Source: Candidatus Fermentibacterota bacterium (GTDB taxonomy: Bacteria > Fermentibacterota > Fermentibacteria > Fermentibacterales > JCC-6). From it: a DNA stretch of 64,000 nucleotides. The notes below the pieces were generated by a model. That model searched no databases. It was given only the letters and a program-made list of their open reading frames with translations, and was not told the origin of the DNA. The stretch lies in the NCBI GenBank assembly GCA_014728175.1, contig WJMA01000003.1:66191-130190 (forward strand). The letters are read 5' to 3'. Position numbers and translations under genes: made by a program. Positions 7,044 to 34,844 of the stretch are shown piece by piece. How positions within the stretch are numbered: position 1 is the stretch's first letter; each line of letters opens with the position of its first letter.

Positions 7044-7045
7044 TG

Positions 7046-7906: not shown

Positions 7907-7984
7907 GTTCCCCCCAGGGTTGAGATCAAACGCACCAACCCGGTAAATATAGGCAACGACCCGAATACCGAAAGGAAGCCGCGG

Positions 7985-14223: not shown

Positions 14224-14309
14224 CCCGGCTTCCTTCATACCAGGTGAACATTGTTTTATCAGCGTAAATCTCCCTGTGAAAGGTTGGCCGCATCCGCGGC
14301 CCTTCTCCG

Positions 14310-22338: not shown

Positions 22339-23667
22339 TCAGCTCTCCAGAAAAGGCTGCAGAACATCGACCAGGTTGGGCCTGCCTATCTCCTGCAGCT
22401 CGTAGGTCACTCTTGCACAAGGTTTGTCTATCTCTATTACCCGGGCGAGATCTATGGGGGTCGCCACCACCACGGTATCTGCGTCCGAGGAGTTGATGGT
22501 CGCCTGCAGGTCTCTCATCTGGTCGTCTCCGTAACCCATCGCCGGCAGTATCGACACGACTTTGTGATCGGAATAATAGAGCTCGAAGGTGTCCACGATG
22601 GACCCCCTGGCGAACGGCCTGGGATCCACGGTCTCGGCGGCTCCGTAGCGCTGCGCGGCGACTATTCCAGCTCCGTAATCCATACCGCCGTGGGTCAGGG
22701 TGGGACCGTCCTCCACGACCAGCACCCGCTTGCCCGTTATGGACGCGGGATCGTCAACGCTCACCGCGCTGGCGGCCTCGATTATCTTCGCGGAAGGATT
22801 TATCGCCCGGACGTTGTCCCTCACCTCGGCCACTTCCTCGGGGTAGGCGCTGTCCACCTTGTTTATAATCACCGCATCGGACAGCCTTACGTTTATCTGG
22901 CCCGGGTAGTAGGAGAGCTCGTGGCCCGGGCGGTGAGGATCGGCAACCGTCAGATGAAGGTCGGGGAGGTAGAAGGGAGTATCGTTGTTTCCTCCGTCCC
23001 AAAGGATTACATCCGCCTCTTTCTCGGCCTGCCTCAGGATCTCTTCGTAGTCCACTCCCGCGTAAACCACGGTTCCCCTGTTTATATGCGGCTCGTACTC
23101 CTCCATCTCTTCGATGGTGCAGTCGTGCCGCTCCAGGTCGTCTATAGTTTCGAAACGCTGCACCCTCTGGACCCGCAGATCGCCGTAGGGCATGGGATGA
23201 CGGACGACGACTACCTTCCTGCCGGCTTCCTGGAGTATTCCCACCGCCCTTCTCGTGGTCTGGCTCTTACCCGAGCCGGTCCTGACGGCGCATACCGCCA
23301 CCACCGGCCTGGAGCTCTCCAGCATGGTCCTGACGGCCCCCAGCATGGACACGTCCGCACCCGCCGAGTTGACCCGGGCACCCAGGGTCATCACGTAGTG
23401 GTCGGAGAGGTCGCTGTACGAAAGGACGCACAGCTCGACCCCAAAATCGCCAACTATCTCCTCCAGCTCGTCCTCCGGCATTATGGGTATGCCCTCGGGG
23501 TAGAGTTTCCCGGCCAGCTCGGGAGGGTACTTTCTGTCGTCTATATCTGGAATCTGGGCGGCAGTGAAGCCCACAACCTCGTACCTGTCGTCCTCTCTGA
23601 ACACTACGTTGAAGTTATGGAAGTCGCGACCCGCGGCTCCCAGCAGCAAAGTCTTGATCCTGCTCAT
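22339..23667 (-). CDS. P-loop GTPase family protein (COG2403 / cyclic 2,3-diphosphoglycerate synthetase-like)
   Basis: 442 aa; Walker A CAVRTGSGKSQT, WDGGNND, NKVD G4 motif; family assignment from memory, uncertain. Confidence 0.4.
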   Translation of the reverse strand: MSRIKTLLLGAAGRDFHNFNVVFREDDRYEVVGFTAAQIPDIDDRKYPPELAGKLYPEGIPIMPEDELEEIVGDFGVELCVLSYSDLSDHYVMTLGARVNSAGADVSMLGAVRTMLESSRPVVAVCAVRTGSGKSQTTRRAVGILQEAGRKVVVVRHPMPYGDLRVQRVQRFETIDDLERHDCTIEEMEEYEPHINRGTVVYAGVDYEEILRQAEKEADVILWDGGNNDTPFYLPDLHLTVADPHRPGHELSYYPGQINVRLSDAVIINKVDSAYPEEVAEVRDNVRAINPSAKIIEAASAVSVDDPASITGKRVLVVEDGPTLTHGGMDYGAGIVAAQRYGAAETVDPRPFARGSIVDTFELYYSDHKVVSILPAMGYGDDQMRDLQATINSSDADTVVVATPIDLARVIEIDKPCARVTYELQEIGRPNLVDVLQPFLES

Positions 23668-23843
23668 TGCCGTCCTTTCCGCAAGCTAGTGGGTACCTTG
23701 CGGGAAAGCAACAGCGAGCCTGCTCCGGCTCGGCCCTTCCCTACCTACAAAACGACCAGCCCATCGGGCTGGCGAATTGTAGTCCAGTTAATCTCCAAAA
23801 GCCACCGCACGTTGTCAACTTCACCGATCCCCAGGGCCTTTTT

Positions 23844-24299
23844 TCACCGCCCGCTTCGCCCTCCCGCCCGATCGGCCACCAGAAGGAGCGATACTCCGAA
23901 TCCACCCACGGCCCCGGTTATCATTCGGACTGCCTCCGTGCTCCGGTAGCACCCGATAAGCAGCTGCGCCAGACCGTCGACGACCACGGGTAGGAGAAGC
24001 AGGATGCCGGCGGCCACTCCCCAGCGGGGGGGCCGCAGGAAGTGGTAGAGGCTGCCACCGAACAGGCCCATCCAGAAGGAGGTGCACCGGGCACACATCG
24101 CGCTGTGCCCCCAGGGCAGGTTTATGCAGCGGGAGGGAATTCTGTGGCAAAGCCCGGAGAGCACGGGATCCAGAACCGGGATCTCTCCCGGGGGCATCAG
24201 GCCCCTGAGCAGGGAGGCGGCGAACAGGAACAACGCCGGAATTCCCACTATCAGCGAAGCCAGTCGGCGACGTCCCTCCGGCAGCCCTCTCCCGGTCAT
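23844..24299 (-). CDS. small membrane protein with conserved cysteines (DUF2085-like)
   Basis: 151 aa, 4 TM segments, CHRIPSRC...CARC pattern. Confidence 0.4.
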   Translation of the reverse strand: MTGRGLPEGRRRLASLIVGIPALFLFAASLLRGLMPPGEIPVLDPVLSGLCHRIPSRCINLPWGHSAMCARCTSFWMGLFGGSLYHFLRPPRWGVAAGILLLLPVVVDGLAQLLIGCYRSTEAVRMITGAVGGFGVSLLLVADRAGGRSGR

Positions 24300-24338
24300 T
24301 GCTCCGTCCGGAGCCTCTCTGTGGTCAAACCGCCCTTC

Positions 24339-25739
24339 CTAACCGTCGGCCCAGGTGTCCTTGGACCAGTCGAACCGCTCTCCCACCGACCCTCTGCCCA
24401 GGGTCTCCATGGCCGCGTACTCACCCATCTCGATCGAATGATCCATGTTGTTGTACCTGAACAGGCCCTGTCTTCCGCAGGTGACCGAGCCTTCCAGCTC
24501 CTCCATGGCCCGCAGCACTTCGCTCAAAGGATCGGAGTAACCCTTCCTGTAGATGGGATAGGCATGGGCCTGCCTGGAGATGGTGTGATCGATCACCTCG
24601 TCCGCCCGCAGCAATCCCAGCCTCTCGCCCCCCGTCACCGCCGCCTCCACCAGCCGGCGGTCGCCGTTCCACAGGTCGTCGTTCTCTTGGCAGCTGAACT
24701 CGAACACGGCCTGAAAACCGCCCTCGGGAGACATCCCGGGATCGAAGTTCTCCGGGAAGCTTATCCGGTTGAAGAGGTACCTGTCCTCCGATGCGTATAT
24801 CCAATGGTCTTCGACCGGAATCTCCGCGTCCACCCGGAGAGCCACGAATACCACGGCCCTGTAGAGAAGCTGCTCCGCCGACCTTTCCAAACCCTCCGGC
24901 AACACGTCTCCCAGCAGACGAACGTACTCGGGGAGGGGAATGGTGCTCACCACCCTGTCCGCCCTGAGTTGTTCGCCGGCGGTATGGATGACGAACGAGC
25001 CCTGTCCTCCGGTAATCCTCCGGGGGACCGTGCGATAATGGATCGCTCCTCCCATGTCCCCCACCCTCTCGGCCAGGACTTCGGCTATGCGGCCGATTCC
25101 TCTCCGGGGGTAATGGAAGGTGCTTACCAGGCTTCTTATCTTGCCCGAGCTGGGCAGCAGGGTCTCTCTCAGCAGACCGCTCAGGCTGGGAACCGTTATC
25201 CTCTGGCTGGCCCAGTCTACGGACAGTTGGTGGGGAGCGAAACCCCACAGCTTGGCCGTATAGGGCCGGAAATATAAGTCGTATAGCTTATGGCCGAACC
25301 TCTTGACCACCCAGTCCTCGAAGCTTTCCTCCTTCCTGGGGGCCACAATGTTGCCTAGCTTCTCGGCCATATAGCTAAAGACCATAGCCGCGCCCTGGCT
25401 CAAAGGCATTCGCCTCAGCACGTCCCCGAACGACAGTGGGTACCGGAAGTATCTGTCCAGGAGCCTTATCCTGCTCTTGCGCTCCAGCTGCATCAGCTCG
25501 TCCGGAAGAAGGTCTCTCACCCTTTCCAGGATCCAGTCCTCCTGGGTGTGGAACCTGTGCGGGCCGTGGTCGAACCGAAAGCCGTTCTCCGCGCAGGTGG
25601 AAGCCAGGCCGCCGGGGCCGGGCTCCTTCTCCAGCACGGTCACCTCGGCTCCCTCGGCGCACAGCCGCCGGGCCGCGGCCAGACCGGTCAGGCCGGCACC
25701 CAACACCACCACCCGGGGAGCGTCTGTCTCCCTACTCAT
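24339..25739 (-). CDS. FAD-dependent oxidoreductase (amine oxidase/protoporphyrinogen oxidase-like superfamily)
   Basis: N-terminal VVVLGAGLTGLAAA dinucleotide-binding motif and GLAS...GFRFDHGPH; overlaps upstream 5'-nucleotidase gene by 8 bp. Confidence 0.6.
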   Translation of the reverse strand: MSRETDAPRVVVLGAGLTGLAAARRLCAEGAEVTVLEKEPGPGGLASTCAENGFRFDHGPHRFHTQEDWILERVRDLLPDELMQLERKSRIRLLDRYFRYPLSFGDVLRRMPLSQGAAMVFSYMAEKLGNIVAPRKEESFEDWVVKRFGHKLYDLYFRPYTAKLWGFAPHQLSVDWASQRITVPSLSGLLRETLLPSSGKIRSLVSTFHYPRRGIGRIAEVLAERVGDMGGAIHYRTVPRRITGGQGSFVIHTAGEQLRADRVVSTIPLPEYVRLLGDVLPEGLERSAEQLLYRAVVFVALRVDAEIPVEDHWIYASEDRYLFNRISFPENFDPGMSPEGGFQAVFEFSCQENDDLWNGDRRLVEAAVTGGERLGLLRADEVIDHTISRQAHAYPIYRKGYSDPLSEVLRAMEELEGSVTCGRQGLFRYNNMDHSIEMGEYAAMETLGRGSVGERFDWSKDTWADG

Positions 25740-27339
25740 CCTTCCAGATTATCCTCATCCGATCGTCGGCCCTAACCGGGCTGTGCTCCCGTACGTACTC
25801 TACGACTGCCTTCAGCAGCGTAACACCCGTGTAGCGTCCGGTATGCTCCAGCATCACCTCGTAGCCTATGTTGCCCGAAGCCAGGTATCCGGTGGTAACC
25901 AGCTCGTACATGCTGTCCGGATGAACGGGCTCTCCTCCGACCAGCAGCTCTTCGGTCTTCTGGCCGTCGGGCATCGACTGGTTCCTCACCGCATGGACGC
26001 CCGATATCTCCATATCGCGTCTTCTACCGGCCATGCCCGCCTCCAGCACCTCCACCAGCTCCTCCCCGGTAAGCTCCAACACGTACAGGTCCTCCTGGAA
26101 AGGAATGGCCTGGTAGATTATACGAGGGGTAATGGGGCCCCGGGGAATGGCGGCCCTTATGCCCCCCCTGTTCATCAGAGCCACGTCTGCGCCGGTGCGC
26201 CAGGCCATGGCGTCCGCCACCAGCCTTCCCAGGGGATGTTCCGCCGGGCCCCTGGGAATCTCCTCCTCGGCCTCTCCCACCACCTCGTCCATGCCGGCCT
26301 CCGCCAGCCCGCGGAAACCTTCTATAAGCTCCGTAGCCGCGGGGTCGGGCCAGAACTCGTCGTGGAAGAGGCTGATGTACTCCTCCCCGTACGGAAGGTC
26401 GTAACCGACGAGGGTCTGGGTCTCGGTGTCCAGGGCCAGACGAATGTGTCCGATGCCCGTTCCGTTGGCGTACCCCTGGACCACTATGGTGTGGTTCACA
26501 GGGTTTATCCAGGGCTCGGCGTAGCCTATGTGAATATGACCGCTTACGATGACGTCGATGCCCGGCAGCACGGTGCTCAGCTCTACGTTGTTCAGGGCCC
26601 ACTCTTTGGCGTAGCCAGAGTCGCTTTCCCAGGATCTCAGAACCGATTCCAGGTACCTGTCCGGATCCGGAGGTTGACCCAGGTGGGAGACCAGCACCAC
26701 CACATCGGCTCCTTCCTCCCTGGCCCGATCCATCGCTCTACGGACGGTCTGTACCTCGTTGCCGAAGAGATAGCCCTCCAGCAGCGCGGGATCCACCAGG
26801 CCGTAGGTGTCCGGGGTGTTCACTCCCACGAAGGCCACCTCCACACCTTCCACGTCGCGTATCACGTACGGTTCGACCGGCCGGGGGATGCTTCCGGTCT
26901 CCGTCTGCAGGAAGTTGCAGCAAACCACGGAGAAGTCGGCCGTCCGGGCCAGCTCGACGGCGTTCTCCGCCCCGTCGTCGAAGTCGTGGTTGCCGAGGGT
27001 CATGATGTCGTAGCCCACGAAGTTCATCCACTCCACGACCAGACGGCCGGAGTCGTAATTGCCGACCGGCGTTCCCTGGTAGATGTCGCCGGCGTCTATC
27101 ATAAGGCAGTGCTCACCGCTCTCCCGGCACCTCTCACGCACCTGATCGACGTAGGCGGATATGTACGCTCCTCCCCCCATCATGGGGGGGAAGTTGGGGT
27201 TAATGAAGGAGGCCGAGGTGGGAGCTATGCCTCCATGTATATCATTGGTATGTAATATGTTAAGATATACAGTCTCCGCCGCCGGTTGAGCGGTGGCCAA
27301 AAGCAGGGCAACGAAGAGCAGGAACCGGCGTTTGGTCAC
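25732..27339 (-). CDS. bifunctional metallophosphatase/5'-nucleotidase (UshA family), secreted
   Basis: signal peptide; NDIHGG, GNHDFD metallophosphatase motifs + C-terminal 5'-nucleotidase substrate domain; GTG start at 27339 overlapping upstream stop (GTGA). Confidence 0.8.
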   Translation of the reverse strand: MTKRRFLLFVALLLATAQPAAETVYLNILHTNDIHGGIAPTSASFINPNFPPMMGGGAYISAYVDQVRERCRESGEHCLMIDAGDIYQGTPVGNYDSGRLVVEWMNFVGYDIMTLGNHDFDDGAENAVELARTADFSVVCCNFLQTETGSIPRPVEPYVIRDVEGVEVAFVGVNTPDTYGLVDPALLEGYLFGNEVQTVRRAMDRAREEGADVVVLVSHLGQPPDPDRYLESVLRSWESDSGYAKEWALNNVELSTVLPGIDVIVSGHIHIGYAEPWINPVNHTIVVQGYANGTGIGHIRLALDTETQTLVGYDLPYGEEYISLFHDEFWPDPAATELIEGFRGLAEAGMDEVVGEAEEEIPRGPAEHPLGRLVADAMAWRTGADVALMNRGGIRAAIPRGPITPRIIYQAIPFQEDLYVLELTGEELVEVLEAGMAGRRRDMEISGVHAVRNQSMPDGQKTEELLVGGEPVHPDSMYELVTTGYLASGNIGYEVMLEHTGRYTGVTLLKAVVEYVREHSPVRADDRMRIIWKDE

Positions 27340-28523
27340 AGCTCGAACCTCCGACCGATGGACAGCAGAACGGTGGTCGAGCTCTCCTCCACCACCAGGC
27401 TGTCGCCGGGGTCGAAGGAAACCATGTCCGGAACCTCCACCTGTCTCCATCTGCCTGGGCTGAAGCTGCCGCCCACGTCCAACGAGTAGTCACCCAGCCG
27501 GAAGCCCAGGCCCAGGGTGAAGGCCATCCTGTCCAGAGCCCGGGATATCGGAGAGCTGCGGTAGCTGAAGCCGAACCTGCCCACGGGCCCGCCGGGAAGG
27601 TCGTTCTCCACGCCCGCAGACATTCCCCATGCGTCCCGGTCGTACATGTCCGCGCCCTCCCGCTCCGCATCGCTTCTGGCACTGTAGTAACACTCCCCGG
27701 TGAAAACCGTCCGGAGCGCGTTCCCCGGCTCGTACACGGCCCCGGCGTGGAACACGGGGGGGAGGCTGACGCTGGCCTGCTCGTCTCCCGTCAGCTCGTA
27801 GGAAAGACTGTAATCCATTCCCGCGGATATCGCGACCCTTCCGGCGCGGTACAGGGCCGAGGCCCTGGCGCTGGCTCCGCTGACATCGGTGTCGGTTACC
27901 TGCAGGACGTCGTCCGCGGTGGGGTCCACGTAGCTCACCACCCAGCGGGAGGTTCGATTGCCGAACAGGTATCCGGCCCCCAGGCCCACCAGCAACCTCT
28001 CCGAGGGGGCGAAGCAGGCGGCCAGAGCCAACTCCGAGGCCCTCCCGCTTACCTCCAGGCGCTCCCTGGCCGTCTCCACGTAACTCTCGTCCATCACCAT
28101 TCTGTCGTAGTCGTAGCAGAAGCTGTAGGGACGGTACAAGCCGGCGGTTATGGAAACGTTGTTCGGTATTCCCACCGCCCCGGAGCCGGTGGCGGACACT
28201 CCGCCGGGAAACGTCGAGATATGCCGGTTGAACGCTTCCTCGGACTCCCCGATGCTGCTGCCGAACTCGTCGTAGACCTTCCGCAGCCTCTTCTCCATGG
28301 TCAGTCTGGTGCCTCCCGAAACCTCCACCAGCAGCCCCGGGCCCAGCAGCCCGGATAGGGCGGGATTCCTGAGCGCCCCGGTCGGGGTCAGCTCTACGAA
28401 CCCCGACTCTCCCATCGAGATGCCCCGGGCGGAGGTGGAGGGGCATGGAATGCCCATGTCCAGAACGGAGGGAAGGCTTGCCGGGATCGTTGCGAATGCC
28501 AATACGGTCAACAAGAGTGACAT
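27336..28523 (-). CDS. hypothetical outer-membrane protein, possibly FadL/PorV-like beta-barrel
   Basis: 395 aa, signal peptide, beta-rich with periodic aromatic/Gly residues, C-terminal ...GRRFEL; family assignment speculative. Confidence 0.35.
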   Translation of the reverse strand: MSLLLTVLAFATIPASLPSVLDMGIPCPSTSARGISMGESGFVELTPTGALRNPALSGLLGPGLLVEVSGGTRLTMEKRLRKVYDEFGSSIGESEEAFNRHISTFPGGVSATGSGAVGIPNNVSITAGLYRPYSFCYDYDRMVMDESYVETARERLEVSGRASELALAACFAPSERLLVGLGAGYLFGNRTSRWVVSYVDPTADDVLQVTDTDVSGASARASALYRAGRVAISAGMDYSLSYELTGDEQASVSLPPVFHAGAVYEPGNALRTVFTGECYYSARSDAEREGADMYDRDAWGMSAGVENDLPGGPVGRFGFSYRSSPISRALDRMAFTLGLGFRLGDYSLDVGGSFSPGRWRQVEVPDMVSFDPGDSLVVEESSTTVLLSIGRRFEL

Positions 28524-28535
28524 ATCTCCTCCAGG

Positions 28536-30974
28536 CTACCAGCGAAAGTCCAGCTGGCAGCGGATTCCATAACCCGTGACATGATCTCCGAAGTCCCTGA
28601 CCGCGGAGTCGGGGTCCCCCTGGTAGTGGAACTGGTCCTCCGGGTCGGGACGGTAAAGCCCGGTCCGGGGATAGAAGGTGTCCTTCCTCAGCACCCTGAA
28701 CCTGAGCTGGAGATTGTCCGACAGCGCGTTCTTGAAGGTCAGGTAGAACTTGGTCCCATCTCCGTCCAGGAAATCTATTCCCGTATCCTCGAACTCCCAC
28801 TGGCTCATCCCGTCGGTGGTCCATAGGGTCGTTCCTCCCAGAACGGACAGCCGGTCGCTGAAGTCGTGCTCCCACCGGGCGGAGAGATACCCACCGGAGA
28901 GCAGCCTGTCGTCTCCGTAGAGAGGGTTTGGGGTCAACTCGACCATTCCCAGCCTGAGGCGCACGTCGAAGTAATCGTGGGCGAAGGGGAGGAAGAAGGA
29001 GCGCAGCGTGTACTCGTGCGTTCTGGACGTCGTGGGTACCACATCGTGCATCTTGGTCTTCGACTGATACTTGTACTTCAGACGGAAGCGCACCGGGAAG
29101 TCCGCCCTGTACTCCACCTCTCCCTGGAACCTGTGGTTGTCGAAGTCGTAGGGCAACGAGCGCCAAACGTCCAGGTAGAGCTTGGGGAAGACGACCTGGT
29201 CGCTCACCTGGAACCTGCTTTCCAGATAGACCCCCTCCTCGGGCTTGGGGGTGGGCCATTCCTGCAGCTGCGAGACCAGGGGGTCGGTCAGGTAGTAGGG
29301 CTTCTCGAAGACCGTATCGTCGTAGCGCTTCTGCTCCGAAAACCCCCGGCAGTAGGGATTGGAGTAGCCCAGATCGTAGTGCCTGGCCGCGGCGGTCAGG
29401 TAGAAGTAGTCGTTCTGCCACCTGGAGGCGATCAGAAAGGCCGACGCCCCGTCGTCCTGTCTGGACAGCTCGCCTTCCAGGCTCATGGGCCCCACCACGG
29501 TCTGCCCGCTTACCCCCAAAAGGGTCATTCCGTCGGTGGCCTCCAGGGAGCGGTACTCCGGGCAGTCCCAGTAGTAGCCGTCGTTGGGAACGTCCAGGTA
29601 ATCGGCGTCCGGAAACAGGGAGTCGTCGTAGGCGATGCTCATGCCTCCCAGACCCACCGCGGTACCGGTGGGCAGTATCCCTCCCAGGTCCGCGAAGCAG
29701 TAGCCCCCGTAGGTGGTTTCGATAAGCGCGTCGGTGTAGCGGCCGCACCTGTACTGCATGGCGGCGGGAACGTTGGGCACACCGTTCTGGCTGAGTATCG
29801 CGTCCCGGCTGGAGCTGGACAGGAAGCCGTATCCCAGGAATGGACCCTGCCTGGCCTCTACCGCGGCACCGGTGAGGGCGAACTGCCGGGTGGAGGTCAG
29901 GTCCGGGTGCAGACCCCAGGGGCGTTCCAGCCGTCTGTACATAAGCTCGCCGGAGTTGTCCACCAGCAGGCCCTGACCCAGGGCCAGCCTGTAGTTGCCC
30001 AGCACCACCTGACGCAGGGGGCCCAGATGGTGGAGGGACACGAAGGCCTTGGCCTGGTCGAACCGATTACTCACCTCGCCCATGTCCATGTCCCGGAAGA
30101 GGTCGTGGCCGGCGGTGGAAAGCCTGCCCCTGGCCAGCCGTACCCCGCCCCGCATCCGGTCCCCCAGGCCCCCGGAAACCCGGTGGGTGAAGCCGGTTAC
30201 CCCCCGGGCCGAAAGCAGCTCCTCGCGGCTGGCCTGCAGCTGTTCGTAGAGAAGGGCGCTGTCCACGGGGCTGCCGGAGTAGTCGGCGCCTCCGGTGGAC
30301 ATCTCGAAAAGCGCCGACCCGAGGTTGTCCAGGGCCGCGTCGTATCCCTCCTCGTCGGAGTCCCTTCCCGCTCCTCCCTCCACGATCATCCGGTAGGAAC
30401 CGAACAGCTTCAGGGAGGATAGATCCAGCTCCCGGGTGGATACGAAGTCACGCATGTTCCGGTAACCGTAATAGCTCAGGTTCTCCACGCTCCTCAGGGA
30501 ACGTATGCTGGACACCGGACCGATGCTCCGCAGACGCCGCTCCACCGCGGCGGCGTCCACCAGGCTCACCCGGTCCAGCGACCTCAGGTCCCACGAGGTG
30601 GCTTCGTTCACCGGCAGGGGCCTGACCAGGAGGTTCTCCCACTCGGCGACCGCCGCGTCCCCGGGGCTATCCTCGGAAGCCAGCTTCTCCATCACGTCCA
30701 GAACCTCCGGAGGCAGCCGGTCCGGCTCGGGGGGAACCAGGATGCATTGTCTTCTCAGCGCCTCCAGCTCGGAGGGACCTATTCCCTCCACTTCGGTCAG
30801 CTGGTAGATGTTCTCCAGCCCACCCATCAGATAGATGTAGCGATGGAGCGAGTCGGCCTGTTCTCCGCTCACCCCCTCCAGTGCTCCTATCTCTTCCGGC
30901 GAGGCGCTGTTCAGATCCAGCCTGTCCGCGGGCCAGAGAAACACGGCCAGAGCGAGGAGCAGGCTAGAAGCCAT
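28536..30974 (-). CDS. large secreted/outer-membrane protein with N-terminal ComEA-like double helix-hairpin-helix DNA-binding domain fused to about 700-aa beta-rich domain
   Basis: signal peptide; LDLNSASPEEIGALEGVSGEQADSL...LTEVEGIGPSELEAL matches the ComEA HhH-HhH signature; rest rich in Y/G/D/R with C-terminal ...QLDFRW. Confidence 0.55.
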   Translation of the reverse strand: MASSLLLALAVFLWPADRLDLNSASPEEIGALEGVSGEQADSLHRYIYLMGGLENIYQLTEVEGIGPSELEALRRQCILVPPEPDRLPPEVLDVMEKLASEDSPGDAAVAEWENLLVRPLPVNEATSWDLRSLDRVSLVDAAAVERRLRSIGPVSSIRSLRSVENLSYYGYRNMRDFVSTRELDLSSLKLFGSYRMIVEGGAGRDSDEEGYDAALDNLGSALFEMSTGGADYSGSPVDSALLYEQLQASREELLSARGVTGFTHRVSGGLGDRMRGGVRLARGRLSTAGHDLFRDMDMGEVSNRFDQAKAFVSLHHLGPLRQVVLGNYRLALGQGLLVDNSGELMYRRLERPWGLHPDLTSTRQFALTGAAVEARQGPFLGYGFLSSSSRDAILSQNGVPNVPAAMQYRCGRYTDALIETTYGGYCFADLGGILPTGTAVGLGGMSIAYDDSLFPDADYLDVPNDGYYWDCPEYRSLEATDGMTLLGVSGQTVVGPMSLEGELSRQDDGASAFLIASRWQNDYFYLTAAARHYDLGYSNPYCRGFSEQKRYDDTVFEKPYYLTDPLVSQLQEWPTPKPEEGVYLESRFQVSDQVVFPKLYLDVWRSLPYDFDNHRFQGEVEYRADFPVRFRLKYKYQSKTKMHDVVPTTSRTHEYTLRSFFLPFAHDYFDVRLRLGMVELTPNPLYGDDRLLSGGYLSARWEHDFSDRLSVLGGTTLWTTDGMSQWEFEDTGIDFLDGDGTKFYLTFKNALSDNLQLRFRVLRKDTFYPRTGLYRPDPEDQFHYQGDPDSAVRDFGDHVTGYGIRCQLDFRW

Positions 30975-31794
30975 AGGTCACGCCCGCCTGGTGGGTGAGG
31001 TCCAGCTCCGGATGGCTTTGAACCGCGTATTCGAAACGAATGCCGGATACGGTCACTCCCAGTCCTCCCGTGGCGGTGGTGGGATTACTCTGTACTCCGG
31101 CCATCAGCGAAAGCGGCCCCAGGGGAAGGGATTGTCCCACGTGCACTCTGGTTCCCCCGAAGTCCCGGGATACGGTCACCCTGGAGCACAGACCGGTCTG
31201 GGGCTCGTAGCTCAGCCCGGCGTCCATTCTTCGCTGCAGGTAGTCCGAGCTCTCCCCCAGCCTGGCCTGGAAGGGATTCCTCACCGAGGCCGCCAGCATC
31301 CACCTGGAGTACATCCGGACCTGGAAGCCCAGGTTCCAGGCCACCGTGGTCGCACTGCCATAGCTGCCTACTCCGTCAGCTATCTGGGCCCTGCATATCA
31401 AAGGCTGTATACCCACCGACATGTCCTTGGACAGGAGTGCGGCCGCGGTCAGGGCCAGAACCTGCTCCGAGTAGAGGTCCGACCCGAAGTACCTCAGGGA
31501 AGCCGCTCCCATCACGGAGCCCCCGAGGGGGTGGGACACGTCCAGCCCATGGGTGGCGAAATCGAGCTTGGAGAACGGCAATCTGCTCTCCAGGCCCACT
31601 TCTCCGTACTCGCCGCCCGAGATGCCCGCCGGATTCCACATCACCGACCCCAGACCGGTCGCCACCACCCCGGTCCCGCCCATGGCCTGCGAGGAGACCC
31701 CGATCTGAAGCTCCTCGAAGGCGGCGTGGGCCTTCAGCGAAAACAACGTCAGGGCAACCAGTGCCGTCTTTCTCGCCAGGTTTCTCATAGGCAT
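30964..31794 (-). CDS. small outer-membrane beta-barrel protein (PorP/SprF-like size and position)
   Basis: 276 aa; signal peptide ...SLKAHA; C-terminal ...AGVTYGF aromatic terminus typical of OMPs; placed immediately after a CTD-bearing cargo gene. Confidence 0.4.
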   Translation of the reverse strand: MPMRNLARKTALVALTLFSLKAHAAFEELQIGVSSQAMGGTGVVATGLGSVMWNPAGISGGEYGEVGLESRLPFSKLDFATHGLDVSHPLGGSVMGAASLRYFGSDLYSEQVLALTAAALLSKDMSVGIQPLICRAQIADGVGSYGSATTVAWNLGFQVRMYSRWMLAASVRNPFQARLGESSDYLQRRMDAGLSYEPQTGLCSRVTVSRDFGGTRVHVGQSLPLGPLSLMAGVQSNPTTATGGLGVTVSGIRFEYAVQSHPELDLTHQAGVTYGF

Positions 31795-31795
31795 C

Positions 31796-32821
31796 TCAAT
31801 CCAGCCGCTCCGCTATCACCACGGTCTCCGTGGTGGTCATCCTGCCGCCGTCGGGTCCCACCGCCTGCAGCAGCAACACGTAGGGTCCCACCGGAAGCCA
31901 CTCATCGTTGTCGTCCCTTCCGTCCCACATCATCACGTCCCCCCCGTACCTGGAGTCTACCAGCTGGGCGACGCTCCTTCCCGCCCTGTCGAAAACGGTC
32001 AGGCTGAATCTGCAGTCGTCCGGGCCACCGTACTCCAGATGCATGCTCTCTCCCGCTCTGGGGCTGAAGGGATTGTCCCACACCGTCAGATGGAACTGCC
32101 CCGGGACCGACGGCGAGTAGACCTGCAGGTCCGACTGGCTGCGGGGAAGCAACTGATAGCCGGTCTCGTAGGGCGGCTCGCTGTCGTACTGGCCTCCCAG
32201 GCCGTATATGTACAGACGAACCCCGGGTTCTATCCCCGAGACGTCTATTCCCGTACCCTCGTCGACCCTTATCGACACCGCCGCCTGGCCGTTCCAGACC
32301 TCGAAGTTGTAGCCGCCCCCGGCCTGGGAGGGATGGCTGGCGACCGTGACCCACTGCTGCGTGGATCTGTCCCCCAGGGCCAGCAGAAGGCCCTCCAGAG
32401 ACTCGCTGACATCCTGGTGGATGACCATCTGGCTGGGCTCCGGCTCCCCCGGCGAGCCCAGATATTCCAGGTCGTACTCGCTGTCAGGCTTTATCTCCGT
32501 AAGACCGTTGTACTGAGTTATCTCCCCCGTGATTCTCAGGCTGTCTCCGGTATCGATGCTGAAGCCAGGGACGGCGCTCGAGTACACGTTTATTCCCGCG
32601 GTGGCGTCCTGCACGTAGAAACTGAGGCCACTACCGCCGGAGAAAAGGGTTCCGTTGCAGGTGGCGGTCGCCTCGATGGTCACCACCTCACCCATACGGT
32701 CGGGCAGGCCATCGCCATCGGCGTCCACTCTGGCCTCGGCCACGGTCAGCAACGGCTGGGCCGATATGCTTCCGGCCATAAGCAGCACGGCAGCCGCCGG
32801 CAGGGTTCTTACCATCCGCAC
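31796..32821 (-). CDS. secreted protein with N-terminal OB-fold of the extracellular-nuclease (ExeM/NucH/Xds-type) DNA-binding kind and C-terminal FlgD-like Ig/T9SS-type sorting domain; no catalytic nuclease domain
   Basis: signal peptide; motif GEVVTIEATAT...GLSFYVQDATAGINVY...GDSLRITGEITQYNGLTEI; C-terminal 90 aa (FHLTVWDNPFSP...LLLQAVGPDGG) resembles FlgD Ig-like CTDs. Confidence 0.45.
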   Translation of the reverse strand: MRMVRTLPAAAVLLMAGSISAQPLLTVAEARVDADGDGLPDRMGEVVTIEATATCNGTLFSGGSGLSFYVQDATAGINVYSSAVPGFSIDTGDSLRITGEITQYNGLTEIKPDSEYDLEYLGSPGEPEPSQMVIHQDVSESLEGLLLALGDRSTQQWVTVASHPSQAGGGYNFEVWNGQAAVSIRVDEGTGIDVSGIEPGVRLYIYGLGGQYDSEPPYETGYQLLPRSQSDLQVYSPSVPGQFHLTVWDNPFSPRAGESMHLEYGGPDDCRFSLTVFDRAGRSVAQLVDSRYGGDVMMWDGRDDNDEWLPVGPYVLLLQAVGPDGGRMTTTETVVIAERLD

Positions 32822-32840
32822 TCCCTTCGAAAGCGATTCT

Positions 32841-34277
32841 TCATCTTTCCGTCTCCATCTCCTCGTCGGCCAGCTCCGCCGCCCTAGCCAGGGCTTCCTC
32901 CGGACCCATACGCCCGTAGAGGGCTATCTCCACCGCCTCGGAGAGGAACTCCCTACCGTTGTACCATGCGCTGATCTGGGGCTCGAACCTGGCGTAATCC
33001 AGCTGGGCGACAACCTCCTCCAATCCCCGGCTCTCGGATAGCCTGCGCCGGGCGACCGGTTGCCGCAGCGCGGTGCTGGACACGGGAAGGTAGCCGGTTC
33101 CGGCGAACCATCTGGCCTGCTGCTCGGGCTCGGTGAACCACTTGACGAACTCCCAGGCGGCCTCCGTCCGGTCCGGGCCATGATCCGCGAACAACACTAC
33201 GTTGGTCCCGGCTATGAAAACCGCCCTCCGGCGATTCGATGGAAGGGGAGCCACGGCTATCTCGAAAGTGCTCAGACCGCTCTCGGCACGCCTTTGCATG
33301 TCCCGCTGCATGAAGGAAAGCGATACCACCGACCCCTGAACCATTGCCACCCGTCCCTCCGTGAACTCCCGCTGATGCTCGTACCCGGAGGACAGATACG
33401 CCGTACCGTCCCGATGCAACAGTTCCACCAGGAAGCCTAGAGCCTCCACTCCCTCCGTCTGCGCGAATGCGGTGCTCCGACCGTCCGGTGAGAGCAGTGT
33501 ACCTCCGTTCTGGGCCAGTAGGTTCTCGAACATCCAAACGCTGACCGTAAAGGCCGTTCCCCACCTGTCGCAGTCGTCCAGGAGGTCTCCGTCCCCGTTG
33601 CCGTCGTAAGAAAGGGTTCTCAGCAGCTCTCTATGCTGCTGCCAGGTGGAGGGAGGGGCCAGCCCCAGGCTGTCGAACAGGTCCGCATTGTAGTACAGGG
33701 CGGGGACGCTTTTGTTGAACGGAAAGCTGTAGACCCGTTCCCCGAAGGTGTTGTTCTTACGGAATACCTCGTAGAAGCGTGCCCAATCGCTCCGGGAATA
33801 TTCCCGGTCCTGGGCCATCATGGAGTCCAGGGGTACCAGCACCCCGCCGTCTATGAGCTGAGCCGTCCAGGTCTCGTAGGCCTGGGCCAGAACCGGCGGT
33901 TCTCCGGCCATGACGCTGGCCATAATCTTCTGGCTGAGCGCCCTGTAGTTGCCCATGGAAACGGCGACCACCTCGATACCCGGATGGGTGGCGTTGAACT
34001 CGGCCACCAGCGAGTCCTCAAGCAGCTCGCCGAGCGGCCCCCCCATGGCGTGCCAGAATACAACCCTGACCGTCTGCCCGGAGGTTCGGCCACCATCCGG
34101 GCGGCAGGACGGCAGAAACGGGGCCGCCAGAATCAGGAAAAGCAAGAAGCGGGACAGAGACTCCTCCCGAGATTCGTGCAGCAGAGAAAACGGAGCGTGA
34201 ATCGACCCCGGTAAATATACTCCCTCCCGATCCACCCGTAAGGTCTGAAGAGGCCGGATCCGATTGGAGATTGACAC
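32841..34277 (-). CDS. ABC transporter substrate-binding protein, family 1 (sugar-type), orphan (no adjacent permease/ATPase)
   Basis: 478 aa; lipoprotein-like signal (FLPSC); overall SBP-1 pattern; start codon uncertain. Confidence 0.6.
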   Translation of the reverse strand: MSISNRIRPLQTLRVDREGVYLPGSIHAPFSLLHESREESLSRFLLFLILAAPFLPSCRPDGGRTSGQTVRVVFWHAMGGPLGELLEDSLVAEFNATHPGIEVVAVSMGNYRALSQKIMASVMAGEPPVLAQAYETWTAQLIDGGVLVPLDSMMAQDREYSRSDWARFYEVFRKNNTFGERVYSFPFNKSVPALYYNADLFDSLGLAPPSTWQQHRELLRTLSYDGNGDGDLLDDCDRWGTAFTVSVWMFENLLAQNGGTLLSPDGRSTAFAQTEGVEALGFLVELLHRDGTAYLSSGYEHQREFTEGRVAMVQGSVVSLSFMQRDMQRRAESGLSTFEIAVAPLPSNRRRAVFIAGTNVVLFADHGPDRTEAAWEFVKWFTEPEQQARWFAGTGYLPVSSTALRQPVARRRLSESRGLEEVVAQLDYARFEPQISAWYNGREFLSEAVEIALYGRMGPEEALARAAELADEEMETER

Positions 34278-34343: not shown

Positions 34344-34844
34344 ATGAGAGCAACCCGAATCGTTCTGGCCTTCGTCGTTCTGGCAATGGCGGTCTCCTGC
34401 GGACCGGGCAAGGCGACCGACAGGATGAAGGAGCTAATTCAGGCCATAGACGAAGGGGACGGACAGCTGGCTGCATCCATGCTTTCCCAGAGCGCCCTGG
34501 GCAAGCTTTCGGAATCGCTGGACAGGTTCAAGCGCGACCCCGGAGCGGCTTCCCAGCAGCTGACCGCAATCGGGGTACAGATAACCGCAGAGGAGCTGCA
34601 AACCATTACCCCCCGGGCCTTCGCGCGCAAGCTGGTTTCGTCCCAGGCTACGGCGGAAATAATGCGGGCGGCCAGGCCCGAGGTAACCCACGTTTCCGTC
34701 GATGGCGACACGGCCATGGTAGAGATTGAGGCGACGCTACAGAATACCAAGCAGACCATGGTTATCCGCCTGGTGGTAGAGGACGGGGAATGGAGGGTGA
34801 CCAGCCTGCCGATCAACCCGGTTAAGATCCACTTCGGGTTCTGA
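34344..34844 (+). CDS. hypothetical lipoprotein
   Basis: signal peptide + lipobox AVSC; 166 aa; no family recognised. Confidence 0.4.
   Translation: MRATRIVLAFVVLAMAVSCGPGKATDRMKELIQAIDEGDGQLAASMLSQSALGKLSESLDRFKRDPGAASQQLTAIGVQITAEELQTITPRAFARKLVSSQATAEIMRAARPEVTHVSVDGDTAMVEIEATLQNTKQTMVIRLVVEDGEWRVTSLPINPVKIHFGF

What the first reader, a model, noticed from the sequence alone, without database searches (positions are those of the whole stretch)
23844..34277. Translationally coupled minus-strand operon that looks like an outer-membrane DNA-capture / nucleotide-scavenging module
Nine same-strand genes with 0-40 bp gaps or overlaps (including a GTGA overlap into the 5'-nucleotidase). In order: an orphan family-1 SBP; a secreted protein with an extracellular-nuclease-type OB-fold and a FlgD/T9SS-like CTD; a 276-aa beta-barrel; an 812-aa ComEA-HhH::beta-rich outer-membrane protein; a 395-aa FadL/PorV-like OMP; a UshA-family 5'-nucleotidase; an FAD oxidoreductase; and a DUF2085-like membrane protein. 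Two independent DNA-binding modules (OB-fold and ComEA HhH2) sit on surface or OM proteins with no nuclease catalytic domain, followed by a periplasmic nucleotide phosphoesterase. This suggests capture of extracellular DNA at the outer membrane with downstream processing to nucleosides, or a DNA-uptake route distinct from the PilQ/ComEA paradigm. I do not recognise this gene combination as a described system.
Basis: partly seen in the sequence, partly recalled or inferred. Interest (0 to 1): 0.8.

Follow-up and report, generated by a model that had tools for sequence, protein, structure and literature searches.

The report
Outer-membrane nucleic-acid capture and uptake operon
A Fermentibacteria operon encodes a surface OB-fold protein, three outer-membrane barrels (one fused to ComEA-like DNA-binding domains), a 5'-nucleotidase and a dinucleotide-type binding protein, which looks like an undescribed way to take nucleic acids across the outer membrane.

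Summary
They are packed at -11 to +39 bp, and the GTGA and ATGGCTTCTAG overlaps are real. Every domain call was reproduced.

Only part of the operon is a conserved module. The trio of PorV-like barrel, tandem-HhH ~24-strand barrel and BamG-like barrel is kept in order in Fermentibacterota, WOR-3, TA06, Edwardsbacteria and Cloacimonadota. It is usually preceded by a DUF5689/tandem-OB protein with a T9SS-type C-terminal domain and followed by a UshA-like 5'-nucleotidase. Relatives add a secreted NucT-like nuclease, a PHP hydrolase, LTD proteins, adenosine deaminase, RecJ or ComM. The "orphan" SBP is closest to the Thermus dinucleotide (U3G)-binding protein and sits beside ABC permeases in TA06. 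The FAD oxidoreductase and DUF2085 are lineage-specific passengers.

Best reading (about 0.6): an outer-membrane nucleic-acid capture and import module. It is analogous to the Bacteroidota DUF5689 + barrel + HhH systems (B. thetaiotaomicron ddb; Riemerella transformation genes). Its translocon differs: no plug or TonB-receptor domain was detected, and HhH domains are fused to the barrel.

Caveats: the window has no nuclease, the OB region is acidic, and nothing has been tested experimentally. I class it as a new variant of a known kind.

The parts
32841..34277 (-). Family-1 (CUT1) solute-binding lipoprotein, closest to the dinucleotide (U3G)-binding protein / UgpB cluster. The true start is probably about 40 codons downstream of 34277.
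   Evidence: SBP_bac_8 1e-36 and SBP_bac_1 2e-32. Best solved homologue is the 7C0F/7C14 series, E 5e-39 to 2.5e-38 over the full length, ahead of UgpB at 4e-28. 7C0F is the U3G-binding protein according to SI Table S5 of PMC12718374. The lipobox-like LPSC was read. The gene is conserved here in 46/47 Fermentibacterota loci. In L062/L063/L066/L071 it is preceded by two BPD_transp_1 permeases.
31796..32821 (-). Secreted 341-aa surface-receptor candidate: leader, tandem OB-type beta domains (about residues 24-240, window 32102-32752) and an Ig-like T9SS-type C-terminal domain (about residues 243-341, window 31799-32095).
30964..31794 (-). 276-aa small FadL-superfamily outer-membrane barrel, PorV/PorQ-like; proposed docking partner for the CTD protein.
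   Evidence: NCBIfam PorV/PorQ 5e-6, below the cut-off. The family profile's best PDB match is PorV 6h3i_F at 7e-6, then CymD/TodX. It has the N-terminal FE...AMGG...NPAGL motif and ends in a C-terminal F. It lies immediately upstream of the HhH barrel in 23/23 non-Fermentibacterota loci that have upstream flank. It is a paralogue of the 395-aa family (hhalign 97.6%, E 4.5e-12).
28536..30974 (-). 812-aa core protein: leader, two ComEA-type (HhH)2 domains (residues 18-78, window 30741-30923; residues 120-180, window 30435-30617) and a beta-barrel of about 24 strands (residues 190-812, window 28539-30407) that ends ...DFRW.
27336..28523 (-). 395-aa FadL-superfamily outer-membrane barrel, closest to Bacteroidota BamG.
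   Evidence: NCBIfam BamG 4e-8, 32.6 bits against a cut-off of 250. Family profile against PDB: P. gingivalis BamG 9hjm_F 4e-12, F. johnsoniae BamG 9n2d_B 1e-9, TodX 2e-8. It lies immediately downstream of the HhH barrel in 24/25 non-Fermentibacterota loci.
25732..27339 (-). UshA-family 5'-nucleotidase with an N-terminal leader; its GTG start overlaps the upstream stop codon (GTGA).
   Evidence: 5_nucleotid_C 7e-32 and Metallophos 9e-11. Best PDB matches: nucleotidase 3ivd 2e-49, T. thermophilus 5'-NT 2z1a 3e-43, UshA 1e-32. Junction read. Present in 50/50 Fermentibacterota loci and in most loci of other phyla.
24339..25739 (-). FAD/NAD-binding amine-oxidase-family oxidoreductase. It is probably co-transcribed (8-bp overlap) but is a lineage-specific passenger, not part of the conserved module.
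   Evidence: Amino_oxidase 6e-24 and PRK07208 4e-100. Found in 30 of 42 Fermentibacterota loci and missing from all Aegiribacteria-named loci; absent from 17/17 loci of other phyla.
23844..24299 (-). DUF2085 small membrane protein, last gene of the unit. It is conserved here only within Fermentibacterota and its role is unknown.
   Evidence: DUF2085 9e-17. Present in 39/39 Fermentibacterota loci and 0/17 elsewhere.
23755..23773 (-). Terminator-like hairpin (8-bp stem, 6 GC pairs, then CGTTTTGTAG) 70 bp after the DUF2085 stop; a possible end of the transcription unit.
   Evidence: The number of such sites in the region does not exceed the shuffled expectation, so this is only suggestive.

Best explanation
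I think this is an outer-membrane module for acquiring extracellular nucleic acid, either DNA or RNA and their fragments.

Shown:
- Three outer-membrane barrels are always encoded together: a PorV-like barrel, a tandem-HhH barrel of about 24 strands, and a BamG-like barrel.
- The trio is usually preceded by a secreted tandem-OB/DUF5689 protein with a T9SS-type C-terminal domain.
- It is usually followed by a UshA-like 5'-nucleotidase.

Inferred mechanism:
1. The OB/DUF5689 protein is displayed on the cell surface. Its C-terminal domain is held by the small PorV/PorQ-like barrel, as PorU and PorZ are held by PorV and PorQ.
2. The OB protein acts as the substrate receptor, as DdbD / RA0C_RS04920 are proposed to do.
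3. The polymer or its fragments cross the membrane through the 812-aa barrel. No plug or TonB-receptor domain was detected in it.
4. The two N-terminal ComEA-type (HhH)2 domains should lie in the periplasm. There they bind the incoming strand and bias its movement inward, as ComEA does.
5. The BamG-like barrel is a lateral partner. It stabilises the complex or docks a second surface or lipid-anchored component.
6. Nucleases cut the polymer. They are encoded elsewhere in Fermentibacteria; Cloacimonadota relatives have an adjacent NucT-like PLD nuclease.
7. The 5'-nucleotidase converts mononucleotides to nucleosides plus phosphate.
8. The U3GBP-like SBP hands short phosphodiester products (di- or oligonucleotides) to an ABC importer. 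The permeases are adjacent in TA06-type loci and are not in this window.

Nutrient scavenging is the more likely output. Feeding a transformation pathway is not excluded.
For: Synteny:
- The six-gene order is colinear in 46-53 Fermentibacterota genomes.
- The three-barrel core is invariant in WOR-3, TA06, Edwardsbacteria, Cloacimonadota and in more distant members.

HhH domains:
- HHH_3 is above the Pfam cut-off.
- A tandem HhH match to EEPD1 and ComEA.
- The HhH domains are retained in distant family members.

Receptor:
- The model contains OB folds and hits the same dsDNA-HIN entry (4JBM) that was reported for DdbD.
- Relatives hit DUF5689 above the cut-off.

CTD and PorV-like pairing:
- The CTD resembles the PorU and PorZ CTDs.
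- The 276-aa family's best solved match is PorV.
- PorV and PorQ anchor PorU and PorZ.

Enzymes and neighbours with a nucleic-acid theme:
- 5'-nucleotidase.
- Secreted NucT-like PLD nuclease in L072/L073.
- PHP hydrolase with a CTD.
- LTD proteins and NrnA.
- Adenosine deaminase.
- RecJ in 10 loci and ComM in 2.

SBP:
- Closest to the dinucleotide-binding U3GBP.
- ABC permeases are adjacent in four loci.
Against: - No nuclease, ComEC, DprA or ABC permease is encoded in the 64-kb window.
- The tandem-OB region is strongly acidic in every lineage (net -9 to -23). HhH domain 1 is acidic in Fermentibacterota (net -5 to -12), though near neutral in other phyla. This is atypical for non-specific DNA binders.
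- DNA binding by DUF5689 proteins is itself only inferred in the literature.
- The window's OB, CTD, PorV-like and BamG-like matches are all below the curated cut-offs.
- About 40% of non-Fermentibacterota loci lack an OB protein. Three loci instead have an unrelated CTD-bearing protein upstream of the small barrel: Kelch, adjacent in L080; a C25 peptidase in L069, separated by an opposite-strand gene; and an unidentified protein in L081.
- Barrel size, pore and topology come from a medium-confidence AF2 model (pLDDT 76), and I could not inspect the coordinates.
- Signal peptides were judged by eye.
Confidence: 0.6

Rival explanations
1. The three barrels are a dedicated secretion and surface-attachment device for CTD-bearing proteins, a T9SS-like accessory. 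The PorV-like and BamG-like barrels shuttle or anchor cargo, and the large barrel is the translocon or scaffold. On this reading the nucleic-acid theme belongs to the usual cargo (an OB protein) and not to the barrels.
For: - The 276-aa family's best match is PorV, and the 395-aa family's best match is BamG. Both known proteins dock surface proteins beside a larger barrel.
- Some CTD-bearing protein lies upstream of the small barrel in most loci. Non-OB examples are a Kelch/Por_Secre_tail protein in L080 and a C25 peptidase with a T9SS type-A sorting domain in L069.
Against: - The tandem ComEA-type HhH domains are kept on the large barrel in nine of ten distant members scanned (one below the cut-off), and no protein-secretion role explains them.
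- The core occurs with no adjacent CTD gene in L088, and the L069 peptidase is separated from it by an opposite-strand gene.
- The 5'-nucleotidase, nuclease, RecJ and adenosine deaminase linkage follows the barrels, not just the OB cargo.
- The scan returned one locus per genome, whereas CTD proteins are many.
- No motor or energising genes are adjacent.
Confidence: 0.13
2. The module scavenges another phosphate-ester substrate, not nucleic-acid polymers. Candidates are free nucleotides, NAD or UDP-sugars, glycerophosphodiesters, or teichoic-acid-like polymers. The barrels act as specific porins, and the OB and HhH domains serve as protein-protein or glycan-binding modules.
For: - UshA-family enzymes hydrolyse many nucleotide derivatives; the NCBIfam hits include NadN, CpdB and UshA.
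- The SBP sits in the UgpB / GPC / U3G phosphate-ester cluster.
- The OB region and HhH domain 1 are acidic.
- The window has no nuclease.
- One distant receptor carries a CBM_4_9 domain.
Against: - A barrel of about 24 strands plus two accessory barrels and a surface receptor is elaborate for small solutes.
- The SBP is 10 orders of magnitude closer to the dinucleotide binder than to UgpB.
- A secreted PLD nuclease, LTD proteins, RecJ and ComM in relatives point to polymers.
- DUF5689 proteins are tied genetically to DNA uptake.
Confidence: 0.15
3. The module is mainly the outer-membrane entry step of natural transformation. DNA is taken up intact and handed to ComEC, and the 5'-nucleotidase is incidental.
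For: - The closest experimentally tested analogue is the Riemerella DUF5689 + barrel + HhH protein set, which is essential for transformation.
- ComM is adjacent in L064/L065, and RecJ is adjacent in 10 loci.
- ComEA-type domains are the classical periplasmic DNA receptor.
Against: - The most constant enzymatic partner is a catabolic 5'-nucleotidase.
- An SBP/ABC importer, adenosine deaminase, and PLD and PHP hydrolases accompany the core in different lineages.
- No ComEC, DprA or ComF lies near it in the window.
- The homologous Bacteroides ddb system is catabolic.
Confidence: 0.1

Closest known systems
Bacteroides thetaiotaomicron DNA-utilisation locus ddbABCDEF, specifically DdbC (barrel) + DdbD (DUF5689) (bioRxiv 10.1101/2025.03.18.642099)
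   Same: Both have a surface DUF5689/OB-type protein next to a large outer-membrane barrel in a locus with nucleic-acid hydrolases. The receptor model hits the same dsDNA-HIN structure (4JBM). Both have a PUL-like logic of surface binder, outer-membrane conduit and periplasmic hydrolase.
   Different: DdbC is annotated as a TonB-dependent transporter. The 812-aa barrel has no Plug, TonB_dep_Rec or CarboxypepD_reg signal and no sequence match to TBDTs, and it carries fused HhH domains. DdbE and the surface nucleases DdbA/F carry SPII lipoprotein signals (DdbD's signal type was not in the passages read). Here the receptor has an SPI-like leader plus a T9SS-type CTD and is paired with a PorV-like barrel. 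The ddb locus has three nucleases and the window has none. The window adds a second FadL-like barrel, a 5'-nucleotidase and an SBP.
Riemerella anatipestifer transformation genes RA0C_RS04915 (barrel), RA0C_RS04920 (DUF5689/DUF5017) and RA0C_RS02645 (periplasmic HhH protein) (PMC8459023)
   Same: The same three functional parts are present: a DUF5689 surface protein, an outer-membrane barrel and a periplasmic HhH DNA binder. All three were essential for DNA uptake in that organism.
   Different: In Riemerella the HhH protein is a separate gene elsewhere in the genome; here the HhH domains are fused to the barrel. The barrel families are unrelated by sequence. No ComEC is nearby here. There is no experimental evidence of competence in Fermentibacteria.
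ComEA (periplasmic DNA receptor of competent bacteria)
   Different: ComEA is a small soluble or membrane-anchored protein that works with the PilQ secretin and a pilus. Here two HhH2 units are the N-terminus of a barrel of about 24 strands. HhH domain 1 is acidic in Fermentibacterota.
T9SS attachment pairs PorU-PorV and PorZ-PorQ (P. gingivalis)
   Same: In both, an Ig-like CTD-bearing surface protein is encoded next to, or held by, a small FadL-like barrel. The CTD model matches the PorU and PorZ CTDs, and the barrel family's best match is PorV.
   Different: The 276-aa protein scores 26 bits against the PorV/PorQ cut-off of 90. I did not test for a T9SS core in these genomes. The partner is a large HhH barrel rather than SprA/Sov.
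BamG (FadL-like subunit of the Bacteroidota BAM complex)
   Same: It is the best solved sequence match of the 395-aa family (4e-12, 1e-9). BamG is a FadL-type barrel that binds the side of a larger barrel and docks a surface lipoprotein.
   Different: The window protein scores 32.6 bits against the cut-off of 250. It is encoded with the HhH barrel, not with bamA. No BamH-like gene is adjacent. It is therefore a paralogue and not the BAM subunit.
ExeM/NucH/Xds extracellular nucleases and B. subtilis YhcR (OB + nuclease + 5'-nucleotidase)
   Same: Both combine an OB module of the same type with a UshA-type phosphoesterase for degrading extracellular nucleic acid. There is a weak ExeM/NucH N-terminal hit, and JGI names some orthologues "YhcR". 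LTD domains occur in relatives' receptors.
   Different: The window has no EEP or SNase catalytic domain. The functions are split over separate genes and are combined with outer-membrane barrels.
Thermus thermophilus U3G-binding protein (PDB 7C0F) / UgpB cluster of CUT1 SBPs
   Same: The SBP is a full-length homologue (E about 1e-38), closer to it than to UgpB.
   Different: The ligand is untested. No permease or ATPase genes lie in this window. The window protein looks like a lipoprotein.

Membership tests
ComEA-type (HhH)2 domain (Pfam HHH_3) | Sequence match above the Pfam gathering score | tested here: met
   43.6 bits against a cut-off of 27, residues 18-75. Of ten distant members scanned, eight pass the cut-off, six of them with two HHH_3 stretches.
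ComEA-type (HhH)2 domain (Pfam HHH_3) | HhH2 fold superposable on ComEA | tested here: met
ComEA-type (HhH)2 domain (Pfam HHH_3) | Non-specific DNA binding | not testable with these tools
   Charge analysis gives a mixed picture. HhH1 has net -5 to -12 in Fermentibacterota and about 0 elsewhere. HhH2 runs from -1 to +6.
TonB-dependent transporter (DdbC / RA0C_RS04915 type) | N-terminal plug, TonB_dep_Rec barrel (22 strands) and/or CarboxypepD_reg extension | tested here: not met
DUF5689 (DdbD / RA0C_RS04920) | Match to PF18942 | tested here: inconclusive
   The window protein has no hit at E<=0.1. The homologous module of 6/13 relatives matches (best 1.2e-7), and longer relatives exceed the cut-off (39.6, 48.4 and 32.3 bits against 28.6).
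DUF5689 (DdbD / RA0C_RS04920) | Tandem OB / HIN-like fold | tested here: met
T9SS cargo C-terminal domain (Por_Secre_tail / FlgD_ig / CHU_C) | C-terminal Ig-like sorting domain | tested here: inconclusive
   The window protein scores 18.6 and 18.1 bits against a cut-off of 27. Among family members FlgD_ig hits 12/13 and Por_Secre_tail 3/13. The fold matches the PorU and PorZ CTDs.
T9SS cargo C-terminal domain (Por_Secre_tail / FlgD_ig / CHU_C) | A T9SS core (SprA/Sov, GldKLMN/PorKLMN) in the same genome | not tested
A literature search for Fermentibacteria plus T9SS found nothing.
PorV/PorQ family (NCBIfam NF033709) | Score above the curated cut-off | tested here: not met
   26.3 bits against 90. 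The family profile matches PorV 6h3i_F at 7e-6 over residues 27-181 only. This supports the superfamily, not the family.
BamG (NCBIfam NF053685) | Score above the curated cut-off | tested here: not met
   32.6 bits against 250, although BamG chains are the best PDB sequence matches of the family profile.
BamG (NCBIfam NF053685) | Association with BamA and BamH | not testable with these tools
   No bamA or bamH lies nearby. The constant neighbour is the HhH barrel.
FadL/TodX (Pfam Toluene_X) | Match above the gathering score | tested here: not met
   13.5 and 13.2 bits against 29.7. An N-terminal NPAG-type motif is present, the family profiles reach TodX at 2e-8 and CymD at 4e-4, and the two families are related to each other.
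UshA / 5'-nucleotidase family | Metallophos + 5_nucleotid_C two-domain architecture | tested here: met
   43.1 bits (cut-off 21.5) and 111.1 bits (cut-off 23.6). PDB nucleotidase 3ivd matches at 2e-49 over the full length. The UshA equivalog cut-off is not reached (174.6 against 600), so substrate specificity is open.
U3G / UgpB phosphate-ester cluster of CUT1 SBPs | Full-length homology, closest to the characterised members | tested here: met
   7C0F/7C14 match at about 1e-38 over residues 23-425. UgpB matches at 4e-28. The UgpB equivalog cut-off is not met (112 against 411).
U3G / UgpB phosphate-ester cluster of CUT1 SBPs | Conserved phosphate-coordinating Tyr/Ser residues; the actual ligand | not tested
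   The residues are named in PMC12718374, but I did not map them onto the window protein.
Bacteroidota ddb-type DNA-utilisation locus | Secreted nuclease(s) encoded in the locus | tested here: not met
   No nuclease domain in the eight window genes or in the flanks examined. A secreted NucT-like PLD nuclease is present in the Cloacimonadota-type loci L072/L073.

The most novel reading that the evidence does not exclude
The 812-aa family is a previously unrecognised outer-membrane DNA translocon that uses neither a pilus nor TonB. It would be a barrel of about 24 strands whose own periplasmic tandem ComEA domains act as the pulling ratchet. Two FadL-type barrels flank it and dock a swappable CTD-anchored surface receptor. 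This would be the general route by which several uncultured FCB candidate phyla (Fermentibacterota, WOR-3, TA06, Edwardsbacteria, Cloacimonadota) import DNA for food and possibly for transformation. It would also show that FCB bacteria repeatedly build machines of the form "large barrel plus FadL-like side barrel", as in T9SS, BAM and now nucleic-acid uptake.
Probability: 0.3. Interest if true: 0.85.

Novelty: new variant of a known kind. Interest (0 to 1): 0.68.

Why it matters
Extracellular DNA is a major pool of phosphorus, nitrogen and carbon in sediments and digesters, which are the habitats of these uncultured phyla. How polymers as large as DNA cross a Gram-negative outer membrane is known mainly for the type IV pilus/PilQ route. 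A TonB-dependent route in Bacteroidota has been proposed only recently.

A conserved module in which the barrel itself carries ComEA-type domains and is flanked by two FadL-like barrels would be a third solution. It offers a concrete, clonable set of five to six proteins for testing DNA translocation through a beta-barrel. It would also give a marker for DNA-foraging potential in metagenomes.

Finally, it would extend the emerging rule that PorV- and BamG-type barrels are docking platforms for surface proteins in the FCB superphylum. It would also point to a possible physiological role for dinucleotide-type SBPs.

Tried and rejected
Hypotheses rejected:
2. The 395-aa protein as the BamG orthologue, and the 276-aa protein as true PorV, PorQ or PorP/SprF. 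Scores are far below the curated cut-offs, and PorP_SprF did not appear at all. I kept them as FadL-superfamily paralogues.
3. The FAD oxidoreductase and DUF2085 as module components. They are absent outside the phylum, and the oxidoreductase is also missing from all Aegiribacteria-named loci.
4. The DHH/DHHA1 neighbour as the missing periplasmic nuclease. It is RecJ and has no leader peptide.
5. Permeases, ComEC or a nuclease hidden elsewhere in the window. The flanks are housekeeping genes (PFOR, FeoAB, GlnA, PurA, ClpX, RmlD and others), and tblastn with the TA06 permeases finds nothing.

Technical dead ends:
- The afdb50 fold library was unavailable.

Literature searches that returned nothing useful:
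- Fermentibacteria + T9SS.
- HhH + outer membrane + transformation + Bacteroidota.
- U3GBP.
- PDB codes as search words.
- Fermentibacteria + extracellular DNA.

The promoter and terminator scans were not above the shuffled expectation.

Full report
**Organism and observation**

The 812-aa protein is 100% identical to GF402_00755 of a Candidatus Fermentibacteria MAG, so the window comes from Fermentibacterota, in the FCB superphylum.

Between 23844 and 34277 there are eight minus-strand genes, not nine:
- SBP, 32841-34277
- 341-aa OB/CTD protein, 31796-32821
- 276-aa barrel, 30964-31794
- 812-aa HhH::barrel, 28536-30974
- 395-aa barrel, 27336-28523
- 5'-nucleotidase, 25732-27339
- FAD oxidoreductase, 24339-25739
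- DUF2085, 23844-24299

The junctions are +19, +1, -11, +12, -4, -8 and +39 bp. I read the GTGA overlap and an ATGGCTTCTAG overlap directly. The unit is bounded upstream by a divergent gene (34344-34844, + strand). Downstream there is a 176-bp gap containing a terminator-like hairpin. The rest of the window is housekeeping: PFOR, FeoAB, GlnA, PurA, ClpX and an RmlD/SIS/LPG-synthase envelope cluster.

**Domain checks**

Above curated thresholds:
- SBP_bac_8 and SBP_bac_1
- HHH_3 on residues 18-75 of the 812-aa protein
- Metallophos + 5_nucleotid_C
- Amino_oxidase
- DUF2085

Below threshold in the window proteins:
- FlgD_ig, CHU_C, OB and ExeM/NucH N-terminus on the 341-aa protein
- PorV/PorQ on the 276-aa protein
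- BamG and Toluene_X on the 395-aa protein

These weak calls become solid at family level.
- Homologues of the 341-aa protein in WOR-3 and TA06 pass the Pfam cut-offs for DUF5689, tRNA_anti-codon OB and FlgD_ig.
- In the aligned 341-like module of 13 members, FlgD_ig matches 12, DUF5689 6, OB 4 and Por_Secre_tail 3.
- A profile of the 276-aa family finds PorV (6h3i_F, 7e-6) and then TodX/CymD.
- A profile of the 395-aa family finds P. gingivalis BamG (4e-12), F. johnsoniae BamG (1e-9) and TodX (2e-8).
- The two barrel families are distant paralogues (hhalign 97.6%, E 4.5e-12).

**Structure predictions**

**Conservation**

A pattern scan of 185,579 species genomes found 175 relatives of the 812-aa protein, of which 80 loci were kept. 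In Fermentibacterota the order SBP, OB/CTD, 276, 812, 395, 5'-NT is essentially invariant:

| Gene | Fermentibacterota loci with it |
|---|---|
| 276-aa barrel | 51/53 |
| OB/CTD | 51/51 |
| SBP | 46/47 |
| 395-aa barrel | 53/54 |
| 5'-NT | 50/50 |
| DUF2085 | 39/39 |
| FAD oxidoreductase | 30/42 (missing from all Aegiribacteria-named loci) |

Outside the phylum (WOR-3, TA06, Edwardsbacteria, Cloacimonadota and unnamed MAGs, at 35-41% identity), HMM searches give the following:
- The 276-aa family lies immediately upstream in 23/23 loci that have upstream flank.
- The 395-aa family lies immediately downstream in 24/25 loci.
- The 5'-NT comes next in most loci.
- An OB/DUF5689/CTD protein of 800-1160 aa lies upstream in about 60%.
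- The FAD oxidoreductase and DUF2085 are never present (0/17 each).

An exhaustive HMM search found 164 clusters (at 50% identity) with E<1e-30, roughly 70-90 of them full length. Of ten distant members scanned, eight pass the HHH_3 cut-off, six of them with two stretches. One of these has a TPR N-terminal extension.

Even the most distant members examined keep the neighbourhood:
- L091: OB-like/CBM, 276-like, TPR-HhH-barrel, 395-like, 5'-NT, LTD, LTD, with NrnA nearby.
- L090: adenosine deaminase, OB/FlgD_ig, 276-like, HhH-barrel.

**Accessory genes in relatives**

All have a nucleic-acid or phosphoester theme.
- A 193-aa secreted PLD-type, NucT-like nuclease plus a short UshA-like enzyme in L072/L073.
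- A CehA/McbA PHP metallohydrolase with a CTD in L062/L063/L071.
- RecJ, with no leader peptide, downstream in 10 loci.
- ComM/YifB in L064/L065.
- Two BPD_transp_1 ABC permeases directly upstream of the SBP in L062/L063/L066/L071. The window itself has no such permeases.

The SBP's best solved homologue, over its full length, is the Thermus protein of the 7C0F/7C14 series (E about 1e-38), ahead of UgpB at 4e-28. 7C0F is the uridylyl-3'-5'-phosphoguanosine (dinucleotide) binding protein according to SI Table S5 of PMC12718374. That paper places it with UgpB and the GPC binder in a phosphate-ester-binding cluster of CUT1.

**Literature context**

- DUF5689 is the annotation of DdbD, the proposed substrate-binding partner of the barrel DdbC in the B. 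thetaiotaomicron ddbABCDEF locus. That locus is required for depletion of exogenous DNA. The DdbD model was reported to resemble the dsDNA-binding HIN domain of 4JBM.
- DdbC and DdbD are homologous to R. anatipestifer RA0C_RS04915 and RS04920. Together with a separate periplasmic HhH protein (RA0C_RS02645), these are essential for natural transformation.
- PorV and PorQ are FadL-like barrels that hold the CTD-bearing surface proteins PorU and PorZ.
- BamG is a FadL-like barrel bound to the side of BamA that docks the surface lipoprotein BamH, and it is conserved across FCB phyla.
- I found no description of an HhH::barrel fusion or of this gene set.

**Most likely mechanism**

Shown: the gene order, the domain and fold assignments above, and the cross-phylum linkage.

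Inferred:
- The OB/DUF5689 protein is exported and held at the surface through its CTD by the 276-aa PorV-like barrel. It acts as the receptor.
- The 812-aa barrel is the conduit.
- Its N-terminal HhH2 pair lies in the periplasm, the usual side for the termini of an even-stranded barrel. There it retains or ratchets incoming nucleic acid, as ComEA does.
- The 395-aa BamG-like barrel is a lateral partner.
- Nucleases generate short products. None is encoded in this window; some relatives have one adjacent.
- The 5'-nucleotidase yields nucleosides and phosphate.
- The U3GBP-like SBP feeds di- or oligonucleotides to an ABC importer.

I put about 0.6 on "nucleic-acid capture and uptake across the outer membrane". 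Within that, catabolic scavenging is more likely than dedicated transformation.

**Evidence against, and rivals**

- The tandem-OB region is acidic in all lineages (net -9 to -23). HhH1 is acidic in Fermentibacterota (-5 to -12) but near neutral elsewhere, and the Fermentibacterota barrel is acidic too (-21 to -33). This suggests a lineage-wide acidic bias, but it remains a real caveat.
- DNA binding by DUF5689 has not been demonstrated, even in the literature I read.
- Some loci have an unrelated CTD-bearing protein near the small barrel: a Kelch-CTD protein adjacent in L080, and a C25-peptidase-CTD protein in L069 separated by an opposite-strand gene. This keeps alive a rival in which the barrels are a CTD-protein display or secretion device (about 0.13).
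- A second rival is scavenging of other phosphate esters (about 0.15).
- A transformation-only role gets about 0.1.

**Verdict**

- The module should be trimmed to six genes (SBP to 5'-NT), with a five-gene cross-phylum core.
- It should be tied to the recently described Bacteroidota DNA-uptake and DNA-utilisation systems.
- It needs the charge and no-nuclease caveats.

It is not a member of the TBDT-based ddb family, because the defining barrel features were tested and not met. It plausibly works like that family. I rate it a new variant of a known kind, with interest 0.68.

Noticed in passing
L004, L062, L063, L066, L069, L071, L074, L079, L080, L088 (0-6 kb downstream of the 5'-NT gene): recJ stays linked downstream of the module in ten loci from WOR-3, TA06 and Edwardsbacteria-type genomes. 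The RecJ proteins are only 30-55% identical to each other. The one whose N-terminus I read (L004) has no leader peptide. recJ is not found in the Fermentibacterota flanks.
   Followed up: partly
L072 13863-14444 and L073 13374-13949: A 193-aa secreted PLD-family protein with weak NucT (Helicobacter nuclease) similarity lies between the BamG-like barrel and a shortened UshA-like gene in the L072/L073 loci (L073 is titled Cloacimonadota). It is the only nuclease candidate found inside any version of the module.
   Followed up: partly
L064 10244-11788 and L065 about 14000-15067: ComM/YifB, a competence-associated AAA+ protein (665 bits against a cut-off of 362), follows the BamG-like barrel in two WOR-3 loci that lack the 5'-nucleotidase.
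   Followed up: no
L090 3539-4648: An adenosine deaminase gene above the equivalog cut-off lies directly upstream of the OB/FlgD_ig receptor gene in a distant version of the module. An Amino_oxidase-family gene of 466 aa, the same length as the window's FAD oxidoreductase, lies about 6.7 kb upstream of the HhH-barrel gene (about 3.7 kb upstream of the receptor gene) on the other strand.
   Followed up: no
L091 8001-11756 (P0215): One family member (1251 aa) carries a long TPR region in front of the HhH domains and barrel. It is followed by the 395-like barrel, a 5'-NT and two LTD-domain proteins.
   Followed up: partly
L080 5756-8998; L069 2438-6349: Where the OB receptor is missing, other CTD-bearing proteins lie upstream of the PorV-like barrel. 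L080 has a Kelch propeller with Por_Secre_tail. L069 has a C25 peptidase with a T9SS type-A sorting domain and partial PorU similarity. This hints that the receptor or cargo position is swappable.
   Followed up: partly
window 34344-34844 (+): A divergent 166-aa gene with a lipoprotein-like leader and Lumazine_bd_2 / DUF4878 / Rv0361-C-terminal similarity separates the operon from the upstream same-strand envelope cluster. A similar small DUF4878-like gene is present in L003. In F. daniensis (L001) only a Zn-ribbon gene occupies this position.
   Followed up: no
window 22339-23667 (-): A 442-aa protein with only weak cobW/HypB GTPase similarity is conserved (66-73% identity) downstream of the operon. 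It sits next to a ferredoxin and the por (pyruvate:ferredoxin oxidoreductase) genes throughout Fermentibacterota.
   Followed up: no
window 25477-27255 (+), 28866-30422 (+), 22564-23949 (+), 30991-32007 (+): Long antisense ORFs of 338-592 aa overlap the real genes. Their codon-position GC pattern (high GC1, lower GC3) marks them as shadow ORFs of this 62% GC genome and not as genes.
   Followed up: yes
window 4223-6061 (+): A 612-aa protein combines retropepsin-like aspartyl protease domains (Asp_protease_2) with a C-terminal PDZ domain.
   Followed up: no
window 7043-9049 (+): This 668-aa ORF contains RlmN (RlmN_N + Radical_SAM) only from residue 328 onward. The listed start is probably too far upstream, or the N-terminal half is a separate unannotated region.
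   Followed up: no
window 28536-34277, and alignments A1 and A2: The exported proteins of the Fermentibacterota operon are strikingly acidic: the barrel has net -21 to -33, against -17 to +6 in other phyla. This suggests a lineage-wide acidic bias of envelope proteins, possibly linked to a saline habitat.
   Followed up: partly
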